64,000 bases of DNA from a virus: IMG/VR virus record IMGVR_UViG_3300025115_000003, positions 21,694 to 85,693 of that record, one strand, 5' to 3'. The translations under genes and the position numbers were made by a program. This document shows positions 421-64,000 of the stretch, one piece after another. Position 1 is the first letter of the stretch. Each line of letters begins with the position of its first letter. The notes under the pieces are model-generated. The model was given only the letters and a program-made list of their open reading frames with translations. It made no database searches and was not told the origin of the DNA.

Positions 421-494
421 AATCTCATAGTTTAAACTGGTTATAATATTAGCTTTTATAGTTAAAGTTTCAGGTTCGATTCCTGATGAGATTG
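421..494 (+). tRNA. degenerate tRNA / tRNA-like gene; loop TTTTATA gives nominal anticodon TTA (possibly a pseudo-tRNA)
   Basis: Acceptor AATCTCA(421-427)/TGAGATT(487-493); T-arm TCAGG-TTCGATT-CCTGA; anticodon stem TTAGC/GTTAA with 7-nt loop 454-460; D-loop GG present but D-stem weak; U at position 37 is non-canonical; no encoded CCA. Confidence 0.7.
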
Positions 495-529
495 CAATCT
501 ATTAAATTATTAATTTAATACTTAAAGTT

Positions 530-11840: not shown

Positions 11841-12821
11841 ATGGAGAATGAAAAAACCGATTTATCGCCCTTTACAGAGGGGCAAGATGTAGTCCATACC
11901 TCACAACAAGCTGAAGAAAAATCTATCAGCCAGAGCCTTCCTGTAAAGTCTATTGGGCAAAATTCGCTTGTTAAGTCTTTACAAGAATTTGACCAATTTG
12001 CAGAAGTAATTATTAAATCTGATTATGCTAAAGGTTTCAAAAGAGTAATAAAAAACAAAGAAACAGGAAAAGATGAAGAAGTTGTATTAAAAGAAGATAT
12101 TATAGCATGTCTGATGGTAGGACAAGAATTAGGTATTAAACCAATGGGTTGTTTAGCACTTGGTAATAAACTTAATGTTAAGTCCTATTTTTCTGTATTG
12201 AAAGGTAGAGAATTAGGACTTGATCCTATAACTTCAATTAGTAAAATATACAATATAGAAACTTCACAAGGTACAGTTTTAAGTTTAGCAGTAGATATCA
12301 TTAATAAAGTTATTTTAGAGAATAGTAAAAAAGTAGAACTAATTAGAGATTTTGAACTTGTACCTTTATATTATACTGTAGTAGGAAATGTATATGTAGG
12401 ACATAAATATAACATATTAGATATAAATGGAATACTAAAAGAAAATTATTTTATATATTTAAATAGTACTCCTGTAGAAGAGGTTGAGGCAAATAAACAT
12501 AAAATTGTAATTAGACCTATTGGATTTACTCACATAAGTTCTTTAAGAATTACAACTGATACGAAAGATGTAATCTATCATTATAGTTTACAAGAAGCTA
12601 TAGATGCTGGATTATATAGAGGATTTCATTCATCATTAAAAGATGATAAAGGAAATCCTATTTATGTACCAGGTAGAGATAATTGGAATAAACACAATTC
12701 TACTATGTTAAGAAATAGAGTAACTTCTATAGCAGGTAGAGATTCTTTTCCACATAAACTACATGGTAGTTATACTCCTGAAGAAGTATCTGAATTTGCA
12801 GATGCTATTGTTATTGAATAA
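11841..12821 (+). CDS. single-strand annealing recombinase (RecT/Bet-like)
   Basis: GQELGIKPM, EAIDAGL, NWNKHNSTMLRNR...FP..LHGSYTPEE, typical of phage RecT-like proteins. Confidence 0.75.
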   Translation: MENEKTDLSPFTEGQDVVHTSQQAEEKSISQSLPVKSIGQNSLVKSLQEFDQFAEVIIKSDYAKGFKRVIKNKETGKDEEVVLKEDIIACLMVGQELGIKPMGCLALGNKLNVKSYFSVLKGRELGLDPITSISKIYNIETSQGTVLSLAVDIINKVILENSKKVELIRDFELVPLYYTVVGNVYVGHKYNILDINGILKENYFIYLNSTPVEEVEANKHKIVIRPIGFTHISSLRITTDTKDVIYHYSLQEAIDAGLYRGFHSSLKDDKGNPIYVPGRDNWNKHNSTMLRNRVTSIAGRDSFPHKLHGSYTPEEVSEFADAIVIE

Positions 12822-61064: not shown

Positions 61065-61500
61065 TTCTCATTTCATTTATTATTTCTTCTATTCTATATA
61101 ACTGATCTGTAATATCAGTAGCTTTCTCAAATTTCAATGTTTTTCCATTTATTTCTTTAAGTACATATATTATATAAAATACTTTATTTAGCTTATTATT
61201 ATAATGTACCCAAGTATAAGGTTTGTTTAAAGTTAAATCCTTATTTACACAAAAATCACATTTATCAAATATTCCTTGTAAGGCTATGTAACATTTCTGT
61301 CCAATTACACTTCCGACTTGTTTTTCCAAAACATCATTTATGTATAAGATTTCATCATTGGATATATCTACAACATAAACAAAGTTTCTGTTATTATTTA
61401 AACTTATTTTAAGTATTTCATTTTCATCTGATATATTAGAAGTAGATATATAAATATCTTTAATTAATTCTCTTAAGTCAAGATATAATCGTTTGCTCAT
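61045..61500 (-). CDS. stand-alone PAS domain protein with C-x10-C-x2-C motif (151 aa)
   Basis: VYVVDISNDEILYIN...IGQKCYIALQG..KCDFC...ATDIT, PAS_4-like with the terminal DIT motif. Confidence 0.8.
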   Translation of the reverse strand: MSKRLYLDLRELIKDIYISTSNISDENEILKISLNNNRNFVYVVDISNDEILYINDVLEKQVGSVIGQKCYIALQGIFDKCDFCVNKDLTLNKPYTWVHYNNKLNKVFYIIYVLKEINGKTLKFEKATDITDQLYRIEEIINEMRNDKRTI

Positions 61501-61508
61501 ATTGTATT

Positions 61509-61655
61509 CTATGGGTTTATCACTATTATTTCATCTTTTAGTACAAAAGCATAAGGCTGTGCAACTCCGTTAATTTCATTTATAGCCCAACCCTGCCCAT
61601 GAACAGGGTTATCAGACACTTTATCAAGCTTCTTGTTCAAACTCAACCAAATCAT
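61509..61655 (-). pseudogene. 48-aa ORF / gene remnant at the cassette junction (MIWLSLNKKLDKVSDNPVHGQGWAINEINGVAQPYAFVLKDEIIVINP)
   Basis: Open frame fills the gap and ends with TAG 8 nt before the PAS gene; coincides with the GC transition. Confidence 0.45.
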
Positions 61656-61809
61656 GTTCAATCATGTAAGACCTAAGTGTTTCAATGCTATCAAAGCCTA
61701 TTAGTTCACACGGTGTACCGTGTTCACTTTCGTAGATCACATTTTGAAGTATCTCAACTTCATTACCTTGCACTACTTTCAGTGCGAATGGATATATTTC
61801 TCTTATCAT
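61624..61809 (-). CDS. small fibre-associated protein (61 aa)
   Basis: ATGA-coupled to the LRR gene; same elevated GC. Confidence 0.65.
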   Translation of the reverse strand: MIREIYPFALKVVQGNEVEILQNVIYESEHGTPCELIGFDSIETLRSYMIEHDLVEFEQEA

Positions 61810-63947
61810 ATGTTTGTCGTGTTAAGGGTGAATGTTGTAACACCCTTTGTTGATTTGATACTGTTAATTAGGTACTTAGCTTGTTCAGCATCAGTTCCGA
61901 ATTCGTCTGCTGTTGCTGCTGCTATTGCTGTAACATTAGCTGCTATCTGTTCTCTGATTATTACCGTTGCTGGCAGCGATGTACCTGTGTTGTTTAGTAC
62001 GCTGTTTAATAAGGGTATCAAGTCAACGTAGTCCATAGTGTTACTTCCAGCGCGGTAATCTAATAATTGTAAAGTCGTCATGTTTGGCTTTGGGCTTCCT
62101 GTATTTCCTAATATATTACCTGTCCAGTTGATGCTATTGCTTTCTAACCACAAGACAGTCAATCCCGTTGGCAATGCCCCTGTATATGTCCAGTTGATAT
62201 TACCATACAAAAGCAAGTAAGTTAATCCAGTAGGCATCGCACCAGTATATGTCCAGTTGATATTGCTACCTTCCAAATACAATAAAGTCAATCCCGTTGG
62301 CAATGCACCAGTGTGAGTCCAGTTGATGTTACTACCTACCAAACGCAAGAAGGTCAACCCCGTTGGCAATGCCCCTGTATATGTCCAGTGAATGTTACTA
62401 CCTTCCAAACGCAAGAAGGTCAATCCCGTTGGCAATGCTTTATTACCAGTTGTCGGTAGTGCTGTTGCTAACGCCGTTACTTGTCTGATTTTCTGCGTCA
62501 AAGCAGGCAAGTTGTTCAGATTCCAGCTAACAATAGGCATAGTTGCATCCGTGCCAGTGTAAAAAACAATAGTAGGATAGTTTATGCCATTATGATTTCC
62601 AAAACTCCTAATCCTATCAGCCCTCTTTATCACAAGTGTTCCTGATTGGTTATTGGGGCAGGATATTACAACAGTATGTTGTCTAAGCTGTACACCATCA
62701 AACAAAGCATCATTAATCACTGTTGTGCTTACAATCACAGCGCTTCCAGTAGCTTCAACTGTTAAATCAGCCGTAGCTGAAAATGTAATTGTACCCTCTG
62801 TGGGTGTTCCACTTGTTCTTCCTGATACAGGTAACACTAAATCCCATATAGGAATATTAGTAGTATTAAGTTGGAAAGTTGTTACTCCTTTACCTCCATC
62901 TATCACAGGTAATTGTATTCTATTAATTAAAAATCTACATTGTTCAGCTTGTGAACCAAATTCATCTGGGATTGCATTAAGAATGGCTGTTACATTCCCT
63001 ACTATCTGTTCTCTGATTGTTACTGTTGTTGGCAAAGTACCAACATTGTTAATCAGACTATTAAGTATTGAAATAAGGTCAGCGTAGTCCATTGTGTCGG
63101 AAGGAGTGCGGTAGTTAAACAGTGATATATTACTCATATTAGCCTTAGGTGTGCCTGTATTTCCTAAAATGTTACCTGTCCAGTTGATATTGCCGCCTGA
63201 CAAATACAAGTAAGTCAATTCTGTAGGTATCGCACCAGTGTAAGTCCAATTGATGTTGTGGCCTGACAAAATCAAGAAAGTCAATCCCGTAGGCAATGCT
63301 CCAGTGTAAGTCCAATTGATGTTATTACCCCACAAAAGCAAGAAAGTCAATCCCGTAGGCAATGCCCCTGTATATGTCCAGTTGATGTTGCTGCTTTCCA
63401 TGTACAAGTAAGTCAATCCTGTAGGTATCGCACCAGTGTATGTCCAATTTATGTTATTACCTGACAAACGTAAATAAGTCAATCCAGTAGGCATCGCTCT
63501 ATTACCAGTTGTCGGTAGTGCTGTTGCTAACTCCACTGTTTGTCTGATTTTCTGCGTCAAAACAGGTAAGTCATTCCAATTCCAACTAACAATCGGCATA
63601 GTTGCATCCGTGCCAGCGTAAAAGTTAACCGACGGGGTACTCGCTCCATTATGATTACCAAACGCTCTTATTCGATCTGAACGCCTGATAATTAACGTGC
63701 CTGATTGGTTGTTTGGGCAACTGATTACAACGGTATGCACCCGAAGCTGAACGCCGTCAAATAAAGCATCATTAGCCCTTGTTGTGCTTACAATTACAAC
63801 ACTTCCAGTCTTTTCAACGGTTAAATCTGCTGTTGATGTAAATGTAATTGTGCCATTTGTCGGAGTGCCTGATGTGCGACCTGATACGGGTAACACTAAA
63901 TCAGCACGACCAATTGTAAATTTGCTATTGCTTATATATCTGTTCAT
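61806..63947 (-). CDS. putative receptor-binding/fibre protein made of two duplicated modules, each with five leucine-rich repeats (713 aa)
   Basis: 22-aa repeat GALPTGLTxLxLxxxNINWTYT x10; module period about 1059 bp; located in the tail gene block. Confidence 0.75.
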   Translation of the reverse strand: MNRYISNSKFTIGRADLVLPVSGRTSGTPTNGTITFTSTADLTVEKTGSVVIVSTTRANDALFDGVQLRVHTVVISCPNNQSGTLIIRRSDRIRAFGNHNGASTPSVNFYAGTDATMPIVSWNWNDLPVLTQKIRQTVELATALPTTGNRAMPTGLTYLRLSGNNINWTYTGAIPTGLTYLYMESSNINWTYTGALPTGLTFLLLWGNNINWTYTGALPTGLTFLILSGHNINWTYTGAIPTELTYLYLSGGNINWTGNILGNTGTPKANMSNISLFNYRTPSDTMDYADLISILNSLINNVGTLPTTVTIREQIVGNVTAILNAIPDEFGSQAEQCRFLINRIQLPVIDGGKGVTTFQLNTTNIPIWDLVLPVSGRTSGTPTEGTITFSATADLTVEATGSAVIVSTTVINDALFDGVQLRQHTVVISCPNNQSGTLVIKRADRIRSFGNHNGINYPTIVFYTGTDATMPIVSWNLNNLPALTQKIRQVTALATALPTTGNKALPTGLTFLRLEGSNIHWTYTGALPTGLTFLRLVGSNINWTHTGALPTGLTLLYLEGSNINWTYTGAMPTGLTYLLLYGNINWTYTGALPTGLTVLWLESNSINWTGNILGNTGSPKPNMTTLQLLDYRAGSNTMDYVDLIPLLNSVLNNTGTSLPATVIIREQIAANVTAIAAATADEFGTDAEQAKYLINSIKSTKGVTTFTLNTTNI
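62120..62445 (-). repeat. 66-bp tandem repeat array 2 (5 LRR units, one 63 bp)
   Basis: Recurrent GTCCAGTTGAT...AGTCAATCCCGTTGGCAATGC. Confidence 0.85.
63175..63505 (-). repeat. 66-bp tandem repeat array 1 (5 LRR units)
   Basis: Recurrent GTCCAATTGATGTT...AGTCAATCCCGTAGGCAATGC. Confidence 0.85.
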
Positions 63948-64000
63948 TGTATGCTGAAATTAGTAAATGGAAACTCATTGCCATTTTCCGCCTGAAATGT
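63944..64000 (-). CDS. 3' end of an upstream gene (…TFQAENGNEFPFTNFSIQ*), truncated by the window edge
   Basis: Open frame ending in an ATGA overlap with the LRR gene. Confidence 0.55.
   Translation of the reverse strand, partial: TFQAENGNEFPFTNFSIQ

What the first reader, a model, noticed from the sequence alone, without database searches (positions are those of the whole stretch)
61806..63947. VLR-like hypervariable leucine-rich-repeat fibre: constant 66-bp framework with variable face residues
Seen: ten 22-aa units share a near-invariant frame (GALPTGLT..NINWTYT) but differ at the x positions of LxxLxLxx: YLRLSGN, YLYMESS, FLLLWGN, FLILSGH, YLYLSGG, FLRLEGS, FLRLVGS, LLYLEGS, YLLLYG-, VLWLESN. 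Known: these x positions form the concave ligand-binding face of LRR solenoids, as in lamprey VLRs and internalins. Inference: this is a phage receptor-binding protein that diversifies by recombination or gene conversion between near-identical 66-bp frames (a RecT-like SSAP is encoded at 11841). That would be an RT-independent, antibody-like route to host-range change. LRR receptor-binding proteins are unusual in phages.
Basis: partly seen in the sequence, partly recalled or inferred. Interest (0 to 1): 0.8.

Follow-up and report, generated by a model that had tools for sequence, protein, structure and literature searches.

The report
Two-headed leucine-rich-repeat phage adhesin gene
A freshwater crAss-like phage carries a recently imported gene for a protein made of two leucine-rich-repeat binding modules, probably a host-binding protein; its binding face varies through ordinary mutation, repeat gain or loss and swapping between phages, not through an antibody-like machine.

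Summary
ORF 61806-63947 (-) encodes 713 aa with ten 22-aa units, a near-invariant frame and variable positions 7, 9, 11 and 13.

- The units form two arrays of five, inside two diverged ~350-aa modules (N-cap, array, helical C-cap).
- The DNA units are only 59-88% identical.
- Synonymous sites between the modules are saturated, so there has been no recent homogenisation.

The repeats are FNIP-type LRRs. AlphaFold gives a confident solenoid, with positions 7-11 of each unit forming its first strand.

The gene and a conserved, ATGA-overlapped 61-aa ORF lie in a compositionally foreign island (GC3 0.35 against 0.12) at the contig end of an 85.7-kb Crassvirales record.

Relatives are uncultured sequences, apparently mostly phage. 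They carry 4-10 units, show a fresh unit duplication and a transferred three-unit block, fuse the module to tail-protein N-termini, or sit beside tail-fibre genes.

No reverse transcriptase, donor cassettes, invertase, integrase or deaminase was found. The "RecT-like" gene is only weakly supported.

Verdict: a probable exchangeable LRR receptor-binding or adhesin cassette that evolves by ordinary means. The antibody-like reading is unsupported. This scan found comparable LRR phage fibre genes before, on other DNA.

The parts
61806..63947 (-). 713-aa two-module LRR protein gene (P0001); TGA stop
   Evidence: ORF list and translation. In-frame TGA and TAA stops lie upstream of the ATG, so the start holds even if TAA is read through.
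62853..63947 (-). Module 1 (residues 1-365): 15-aa leader, N-cap, 5 LRR units, helical C-cap
   Evidence: Self-alignment. Its closest relative is L011, with 88.6% nt identity in the N-cap and 75% in the C-cap.
61809..62852 (-). Module 2 (residues 366-713), joined to module 1 in frame by three residues (PIW)
   Evidence: Closest relatives are L012 in the N-cap (87% nt) and L009 in the C-cap (94% nt). AF2 model m1beafaa0588d has pLDDT 94.7 and pTM 0.90.
63165..63494 (-). LRR array 1: five 22-aa FNIP-type units (residues 152-261)
   Evidence: TRF period 66; unit table.
62109..62435 (-). LRR array 2: five units (residues 505-613), the fourth of 21 aa
   Evidence: TRF period 66; unit table. In the model, strands fall at unit positions 7-11 and 15-20.
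62436..62852 (-). N-cap domain of module 2 (beta-rich, ~138 aa); its counterpart in module 1 is about 63495-63905
   Evidence: AF2 of this domain alone gives pLDDT 96.5. The best structural match is only Z 5.3.
61809..62108 (-). C-cap of module 2 with three helices, ending in the family-wide TF.LNTTNI motif; its counterpart in module 1 is 62853-63164
   Evidence: DSSP of the model: H275-288, H304-312, H321-336. Conserved across homologues.
61624..61809 (-). 61-aa partner ORF, its ATG overlapping the LRR gene's TGA (ATGA)
   Evidence: The same junction and a homologous small ORF follow the gene in L009-L012. Pairwise BLASTP gives 38% identity, E 7e-14. No family hit.
61500..64000 (.). Compositionally foreign island (GC ~0.40 against 0.27). 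It reaches the contig end and resumes at contig bases 1-2100.
   Evidence: Composition profiles. GC3 is 0.354 in the gene against 0.116 in ten other late genes.

Best explanation
The gene encodes an exchangeable host-binding (adhesin or receptor-binding) protein of a freshwater crAss-like phage. It is made of two self-contained capped LRR modules. Each module is a short solenoid of five regular 22-aa FNIP-type units between a beta-rich N-cap and a helical C-cap. Residues 7, 9 and 11 of each unit, with 13 in the following turn, point out of the first-strand sheet. That sheet is the concave face by LRR convention, and these residues form the ligand-binding surface. The two modules have different faces, so the protein is probably bivalent or has dual specificity. 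The gene and a co-inherited 61-aa ORF form a cassette that entered this low-GC phage by horizontal transfer from a higher-GC phage lineage. Diversity arises by ordinary evolution: substitutions tolerated or favoured at four positions per unit, unit duplication and loss by unequal recombination, exchange of unit blocks between alleles in co-occurring phages, and whole-cassette transfer. Shown here: the repeat anatomy, the predicted fold, the foreign composition, the conserved partner ORF, the variation among relatives, and the absence of a dedicated diversifier. Inferred: virion display, host binding and bivalency.
For: LRR identity: Pfam FNIP scores 30.2 bits against a cut-off of 21. phmmer hits CroV588 at E 1.3e-17 and SspH2 at E 3.6e-6. 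The AF2 model has pLDDT 94.7, and its best VIA matches are all LRR proteins at Z 11-13. Variable face: positions 9 and 11 are the most variable across 347 units from 111 proteins. Frame dN/dS is 0.04-0.13, against 0.46 (saturated module pair) and 1.3-1.9 (nearest-neighbour unit pairs) at the variable positions. In variant contigs of a freshwater run, all 7 listed nonsynonymous changes inside the arrays fall on positions 7, 9, 11 or 13. Tail association in the family: the module is C-terminal to PHROG tail, tail-fibre or baseplate-connector regions in P0011, P0072, P0067, P0092 and P0115. It lies beside tail-fibre genes in L004, L005 and L041. Here it sits on the late strand between the head genes and the tail or giant-protein genes of a Crassvirales genome. 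Cassette and transfer: GC3 is 0.354 against 0.116. The island includes the ATGA-coupled small ORF, which is conserved in four relatives. Relatives match only inside the gene, at 80-87% nt, with unrelated flanks. Ordinary repeat dynamics: relatives carry 4, 7, 7 and 8 units. L010 units 2 and 3 are 98% identical. L010 units 4-6 match L011 units 1-3 at 94-97%, while the caps of those two genes are 85% and 69% identical.
Against: There is no direct evidence that the protein is in the virion. It has only a 15-aa leader before module 1, and no recognisable anchor domain. Neighbouring ORFs include non-structural-looking genes (a 151-aa ORF and a 109-aa ORF with a transmembrane-like segment). Some homologues begin with signal-peptide-like sequences (P0008, P0011-P0013), which would suit secreted or cell-surface proteins. 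LRR domains are usually monomeric, whereas fibres are trimers. The two-module form is on record only once, from one assembly in a region that fragments in the reads.
Confidence: 0.6

Rival explanations
1. One reading: a dedicated, rapid, reverse-transcriptase-independent diversification system. The near-identical 66-bp frames would serve as recombination substrates, perhaps through the phage's own annealing protein, to shuffle units within a phage lineage in a VLR-like or antibody-like way.
For: Relatives differ in unit number, and one three-unit block has moved between diverged alleles. The freshwater run shows joints that go back about 66 nt or about one module length, and summed depth over the gene is 3-18 times that of the backbone. 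ORF 11841 has weak RecT-like PHROG hits.
Against: The units of this gene are only 59-88% identical, with exact runs of at most 31 nt. Synonymous divergence in the frames is as high as in the caps (pS 0.67), and within-array divergence is about the same as between-array divergence. There is no second copy or donor cassette, reverse transcriptase, resolvase, integrase or cytidine deaminase in the 94%-complete record, and no inverted repeats. The variants in the reads spread over the whole gene and have unrelated flanks. They are therefore other phages' alleles, not variants of this phage.
Confidence: 0.06
2. A non-virion accessory gene (moron). The LRR protein would be made in the infected cell, or secreted, and would bind a host protein. 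Possible roles are anti-defence, superinfection exclusion, or an effector-like role like that of bacterial LRR effectors.
For: Sequence and fold resemble the substrate-binding LRR domains of SspH1, SspH2 and IpaH. There is no anchor domain. The island is foreign and sits next to non-structural-looking small ORFs. Some homologues have signal-peptide-like N-termini.
Against: In several lineages the same module is fused behind tail-protein N-termini or lies beside tail-fibre genes. It is on the late structural strand. No catalytic or effector domain is attached.
Confidence: 0.2
3. Partial assembly artefact. Either the tandem two-module architecture or the link between this allele and this backbone would be a path chosen by the assembler through a graph of many co-occurring alleles.
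For: The gene lies 53 bp from the contig end. In the run, the backbone contig (depth 63.7) stops at 61629. Beyond that point the region breaks into 286 short pieces with many variants. The 713-aa protein is on record from one contig only. The two modules belong to two different allele lineages.
Against: A join from a C-cap end to an N-cap start is not between homologous sequences, so shared k-mers could not create it. The junction is in frame. All 30 bins, including the one over the junction at 62852, have cover. A different LRR subfamily also has two-module tandem proteins in independent assemblies (P0004, P0006, L023, L041).
Confidence: 0.1

Closest known systems
FNIP / FGxxFN leucine-rich-repeat proteins (Pfam PF05725; CroV588 6NYR, Crov539 7ZAL; PMC9525666)
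   Same: The period is 22 residues, with an LP..L..L core. The Pfam score is above the gathering cut-off. CroV588 is the best solved-structure sequence hit, at E 1.3e-17, with VIA Z 11.2 and 10.4. Function is unknown there too.
   Different: The motif here is L.G.NINWTYTG instead of FGxxFNQ, so there is no double-Phe spine. The arrays are short and capped, with 5 units, rather than a 25-unit closed ring. The source is a bacteriophage rather than giant viruses or amoebae. The modules have their own N- and C-caps and a small partner ORF.
Bacterial LPX-type LRR domains of SspH1/SspH2/IpaH/YopM effectors
   Same: They share the LP..L..L pattern and a 20-22-aa period. Sequence hits reach E 3.6e-6 to 0.02. 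VIA Z is 12.1-12.7 over about 220 residues. The concave face binds a protein target.
   Different: There is no NEL ligase domain or secretion signal. The caps differ. The gene is phage-borne and sits in a structural block.
Variable lymphocyte receptors of lamprey and hagfish
   Same: Both are capped LRRs with a variable number of units and variability concentrated on the concave strand. VIA Z to hagfish VLR A29 (2o6q) is 11.6.
   Different: VLRs are assembled somatically from hundreds of flanking donor cassettes with a cytidine deaminase. Neither donors nor a deaminase is present here. The diversity here lies between phage lineages.
LRR-type phage fibre or adhesin genes noted earlier in this scan (e1-5674195, e1-1094208, e1-3999324; BspA/TpLRR class)
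   Same: Those are LRR heads in or beside tail-fibre loci. They are swapped like cassettes, with a conserved frame and fast-changing exposed residues. The follow-ups judged them to be ordinary recombination (unchecked notes).
   Different: The LRR class differs (LRR_5, 23-aa units, against the FNIP-type 22-aa units here), as do the host phages. Here there are two capped modules in tandem and a crAss-like backbone.
DGR-diversified phage receptor-binding proteins (Bordetella phage BPP-1 Mtd; my own knowledge)
   Same: A stable scaffold carries a few hypervariable ligand-contact positions in a phage host-recognition protein.
   Different: The record has no reverse transcriptase and no template repeat. 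The fold is LRR, not C-type lectin.

Membership tests
Leucine-rich-repeat superfamily | Tandem 20-30-aa units with an LxxLxLxxN-type core | tested here: met
   There are ten units with L5, L8, L10, N14, I15 and W17 conserved. TRF finds period 66.
Leucine-rich-repeat superfamily | Curved solenoid with a parallel beta-sheet formed by the conserved segment | tested here: met
   This rests on a predicted model only. AF2 gives pLDDT 94.7, with one strand per unit at positions 7-11. All top VIA matches are LRR proteins, at Z up to 13.1.
FNIP repeat (Pfam PF05725) | Score above Pfam's gathering cut-off | tested here: met
   30.2 bits against 21, E 4.8e-7.
FNIP repeat (Pfam PF05725) | FGxxFN motif with a double phenylalanine spine (PMC9525666) | tested here: not met
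   The units read L-x-G-x-N-I-N-W at that place, with no Phe pair. This is a distinct FNIP-like subfamily.
VLR-type somatic or gene-conversion assembly | Library of donor LRR cassettes near an incomplete gene | tested here: not met
   The gene's DNA matches nothing else in the 85,693-bp record. The record is 94% complete.
VLR-type somatic or gene-conversion assembly | AID/APOBEC-like cytidine deaminase | tested here: not met
   PF00383 finds nothing in the record, while the controls ring. Other deaminase families were not searched.
Diversity-generating retroelement | Reverse transcriptase and a template/variable repeat pair | tested here: not met
   No RVT_1 match and no second copy of the region.
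Invertible tail-fibre segment or shufflon (Gin/Cin/Rci type) | Inverted repeats flanking the segment and a site-specific recombinase | tested here: not met
   No inverted repeats in 61400-64000. No resolvase or tyrosine recombinase in the record.
Phage tail fibre or receptor-binding protein | Gene lies in the structural or tail gene block | tested here: met
   It is on the late strand, downstream of TerL, portal and MCP, and upstream of a virion structural protein, a fibre- or depolymerase-like 853-aa protein and the giant proteins.
Phage tail fibre or receptor-binding protein | N-terminal virion-anchor region | tested here: inconclusive
   Only 15 residues precede module 1. Longer homologues carry tail-family N-termini. 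The N-cap alone has no clear fold match, with best Z 5.3.
Phage tail fibre or receptor-binding protein | Presence in the virion and binding to the host surface | not testable with these tools
   The phage is uncultured and the host unknown. The only genome-collection hits are three Bacteroidota MAG contigs.

The most novel reading that the evidence does not exclude
Co-occurring freshwater phages might use this capped LRR module as a shared, population-level cassette pool. Conserved frame sequence would let unit blocks and whole modules move between lineages, and tandem modules would serve as in-genome donors. That would give host-range shifts far faster than point mutation. It would be a community-level analogue of VLR copy-choice that needs no dedicated enzyme.
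Probability: 0.08. Interest if true: 0.75.

Novelty: new variant of a known kind. Interest (0 to 1): 0.4.

Why it matters
It extends FNIP-type LRRs, so far described in giant viruses and amoebae, to a family of about 290 clusters of uncultured sequences, apparently mostly from bacteriophages, where they appear to serve as exchangeable binding heads. It shows a crAss-like phage importing a host-recognition cassette with very different codon usage. No LRR receptor-binding protein of a phage turned up as characterised in the paper library I could search. A small, confidently modelled, capped five-unit scaffold with four defined variable positions per unit would be a tractable system for studying, and perhaps engineering, phage-host recognition. 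It does not reveal a new diversification mechanism.

Tried and rejected
- **The look-up of encoding contigs:** Contexts of the JGI/ENA homologues therefore came only from the search for related loci.
- **INPHARED phages:** tblastn of the protein and megablast of the neighbouring 16.8 kb found nothing.
- **Viral contigs with single proteins:** the single-protein scans with P0001 and P0013 found no relatives.
- **Alignment A2:** it was too diverse for the genome scan.
- **Complex prediction, module 2 with the 61-aa ORF:** no verdict. The three runs scored 0.00, 0.64 and 0.00. This is evidence neither way.
- **Foldseek against PDB and BFVD:** only weak LRR matches.
- **N-cap domain alone:** the best structural match was Z 5.3, so no fold can be assigned.
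- **The 61-aa ORF:** no Pfam or PHROG family. Word-based homologue search returned only the ORF itself. Atlas hits were below 0.8.
- **Full-length AF2:** abandoned. MAFFT placed single-module homologues across module 1's N part and module 2's C part, leaving residues 260-500 uncovered, which would mislead the fold.
- **dN/dS above 1 at the variable positions:** suggested (1.3-1.9) but not significant with 18 unit pairs.
- **Run X2:** it held only 8% of the words and short diverged pieces, so it is not used for habitat.
- **P0059 (upstream neighbour):** no family or solved relative.
- **Read-through of the upstream TAA by the phage's tRNA(UUA):** considered and rejected, because a TGA lies further upstream in frame.
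Full report
**What is there.** The minus-strand ORF 61806-63947 encodes a 713-aa protein. Tandem Repeats Finder reports two separate 66-bp arrays: 62121-62438 with 4.9 copies and 63178-63497 with 4.8 copies, at 76-78% matches.

The ten units are not one array. The protein is two ~350-aa modules in tandem, residues 16-365 and 369-713, which are 73% identical. Each module has a beta-rich N-cap of about 135 aa, five 22-aa units (one has 21), and a C-cap of about 100 aa with three helices, ending in a family-wide TF.LNTTNI motif.

Within the unit, positions 7, 9, 11 and 13 carry 1.7-2.2 bits of entropy. P2, T3, L5, T6, L8, I15, W17 and T18 never change.

**Is the frame constant as DNA? No.**
- Units are 59-88% identical in nucleotides.
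- Among codons for the same residue, 37% differ within an array and 42% differ between arrays.
- The longest exact run shared by any two units is 27-31 nt.
- Between the two modules, synonymous sites are near saturation everywhere: pS is 0.50 in the N-cap, 0.68 in the LRR and 0.72 in the C-cap.
- Frame dN/dS is 0.036. The four variable positions have pN 0.53.

The frame is therefore held by purifying selection on the protein. Recent gene conversion does not explain it, and the two modules are old.

Comparison with relatives shows that the modules belong to two allele lineages. Module 1 is closest to L011, with 88.6% nt identity in the N-cap and 75% in the C-cap. Module 2 is closest to L012 in the N-cap (87%) and to L009 in the C-cap (94%). 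The gene therefore looks like an in-frame fusion of two diverged copies, not a fresh duplication.

**What kind of repeat.**
- Pfam calls FNIP (PF05725) at 30.2 bits against a cut-off of 21.
- The best solved-structure sequence match is CroV588, at E 1.3e-17. The LRR domains of SspH2 and SspH1 follow.
- The motif L.G.NINWTYTGALPTGLT differs from the FGxxFN motif that defines the solved FNIP proteins (PMC9525666). This is an FNIP-like subfamily of its own.
- AlphaFold2 on module 2, with a 36-row alignment, gives pLDDT 94.7 and pTM 0.90.
- Every regular unit in the model has a strand at positions 7-11, and a second strand at positions 15-20 that is shorter in the last unit and runs together with the first in units 3 and 4.
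- The 50 best VIA-align matches listed are almost all LRR proteins, at Z 11-13: plant receptor kinases, SspH1, IpaH, PGIP, hagfish VLR A29, CroV588 and internalins.

Because L8 and L10 are the conserved core residues, positions 7, 9 and 11 must point out of the first-strand sheet, which is the concave face by LRR convention. This last step is inference from strand alternation. I had no coordinates to measure exposure.

**Genomic setting.** The window is bases 21694-85693 of an 85,693-bp IMG/VR virus record, classed as linear and 94% complete. The gene starts 53 bp from the contig end.

The phage is crAss-like. Its major capsid protein is 37-45% identical to those of Crassvirales, including cr127_1 (Crevaviridae); Flavobacterium phages are also among the capsid matches. 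The layout is the same: TerL, portal, MCP, and giant proteins of 2518 and 4546 aa. On the late strand the LRR gene lies downstream of the head genes. It lies upstream of a virion structural protein, an 853-aa fibre- or depolymerase-like protein and a 1437-aa virion protein.

The region 61500-64000 has GC of about 0.40 against 0.27 for the genome. The other contig end, bases 1-2100, is raised as well. GC3 of the gene is 0.354 against 0.116 in ten other late genes. Leucine is mostly TTG here, where the rest of the genome uses TTA. The island is therefore foreign, and the unassembled ~6% of the genome probably lies inside it.

The island also holds a 61-aa ORF whose ATG overlaps the LRR gene's TGA. 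The same ATGA junction and a homologous small ORF (38% identity, E 7e-14) follow the gene in all four close relatives. The transferable unit is thus a two-gene cassette. The small protein has no family.

**The family.** An exhaustive HMMER search of 1.84 billion cluster representatives finds 290 clusters at E<=1e-3 and 44 at E<=1e-30. The genome collection of 185,579 species holds only three loci. All are short contigs of Bacteroidota MAGs, and one is collinear with an IMG/VR phage contig.

The whole module is the C-terminal part of longer proteins whose N-termini hit PHROG tail, tail-fibre or baseplate-connector families: P0011, P0072, P0067, P0092 and P0115. In L004/L047, L005 and L041 the LRR gene follows or sits among tail-fibre genes. 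A second subfamily also has two-module tandem proteins (P0004, P0006, L023, L041).

This is family-level support for a tail-displayed binding head. For this phage it remains inference, because only a 15-aa leader precedes module 1. The N-cap alone, modelled at pLDDT 96.5, has no clear structural relative; the best match is Z 5.3.

**How it varies.**
- *Across the family.* Over 347 units from 111 proteins, positions 11 (3.6 bits) and 9 (3.4 bits) are the most variable. Tyr, Ser, Asn, Arg and Trp are common there.
- *Among close relatives.* Four relatives from one JGI metagenome (L009-L012) share 80-87% nt identity with this gene, and only inside the gene; their flanks are unrelated to this phage. 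They carry 7, 8, 4 and 7 units.
- *Unit duplication.* L010 units 2 and 3 are 98% identical, which marks a fresh unit duplication.
- *Block exchange.* L010 units 4-6 match L011 units 1-3 at 94-97%, although the N-caps of those two genes are 85% identical and the C-caps 69%. That marks a transferred block.
- *Selection.* Over 18 non-overlapping nearest-neighbour unit pairs, frame dN/dS is 0.13 and variable-position dN/dS is 1.3-1.9. That is more than ten times higher, but not significantly above 1.

**Reads.** One freshwater run holds 78% of the sampled words. It may be the source sample. Its contigs cover the phage backbone as a single piece, at depth 63.7, up to 61629. Beyond that point the region breaks into 286 short pieces with summed depth 170-1200 and many variants. 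Even pieces identical to the window are deeper than the backbone, at 76-254. Parts of the cassette are therefore shared with other genomes in the sample.

Of the 34 listed substitutions that fall inside the gene, 14 lie in the arrays. Seven of those are synonymous. The seven nonsynonymous ones all hit positions 7, 9, 11 or 13, and none hits a frame position. Outside the arrays, 5 of 20 are nonsynonymous.

Some joints go back about 66 nt or skip about one module length. They fit alleles with other unit or module numbers. Contigs cannot phase them to this backbone.

**Is there a dedicated diversifier?** None was found in the record:
- no reverse transcriptase and no second copy of the region;
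- no inverted repeats in the locus;
- no resolvase or tyrosine recombinase;
- no cytidine deaminase of the PF00383 family.

It has only weak PHROG RecT-like hits (E 4.5e-5 to 2.5e-3), confined to its last ~40 residues.

**Conclusion.** The LRR reading and the claim that the variable residues lie on one face are supported. The receptor-binding role is plausible from the family's contexts but unproven here. Repeat-number change and block exchange are real among relatives.

Everything seen is what ordinary unequal and homologous recombination, plus selection on a binding face, would produce between phage lineages. This gene's own arrays show no recent exchange. The antibody-like mechanism is therefore not supported.

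Earlier follow-ups in this scan reached the same verdict for other LRR classes on other DNA (those notes are unchecked). I found no description of LRR receptor-binding proteins of phages, or of LRRs in crAss-like phages, in the searchable paper library.

The main caveat is assembly. The two-module form is on record once, and it lies in a region that assemblers fragment. However, the non-homologous in-frame junction, and the two-module relatives in another subfamily, both argue that it is real.

Noticed in passing
window 421-495 (+): ARAGORN calls a tRNA with anticodon UUA, which reads the TAA stop. TAA ends 28 of the 40 larger ORFs in the window. The LRR gene, its partner ORF and their relatives end in TGA.
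   Followed up: partly
L002 2-1588 (-) and 1585-2709 (-) (contig bases 1-2709): These two genes sit at the other contig end. One is a 529+-aa ORF cut by the contig start, with no family hit and raised GC in its C-terminal part. The other is a 374-aa protein with a Fib_succ_major domain (E 6e-13). They probably belong to the same host-recognition island as the LRR gene.
   Followed up: partly
homologues P0009, P0010, P0028, P0029, P0036-P0038, P0043-P0046, P0055: Many family members, and two SGNH-esterase proteins, begin with a shared short N-terminal motif (IGIG... followed by INWSSYWAT-like residues), often before an FN3 domain. It looks like a common docking leader carrying alternative C-terminal heads.
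   Followed up: no
L023 452-3871, L041 7644-10436, L020 4065-5519: Low-GC (0.25-0.27) phage contigs encode 930-1140-aa proteins with two tandem LRR modules of another subfamily, with 11-20 units each and ending in GFP.NFG.WW. They lie directly after a tail-fibre gene that has TSANxYTDTKASETL repeats.
   Followed up: partly
window 61500-61629: The 3' boundary of the foreign island coincides with the point where the run's backbone contig (depth 63.7) meets a shared piece of depth 254. This is a likely recombination junction, used by several genomes in the sample.
   Followed up: partly
P0001 units, positions 16-18: Nearly every unit carries N-W-T, and the C-cap ends in N-T-T. These are formally N-x-T sequons, repeated on the conserved second strand. 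Their significance is unknown; they may simply be an Asn/Thr ladder.
   Followed up: no
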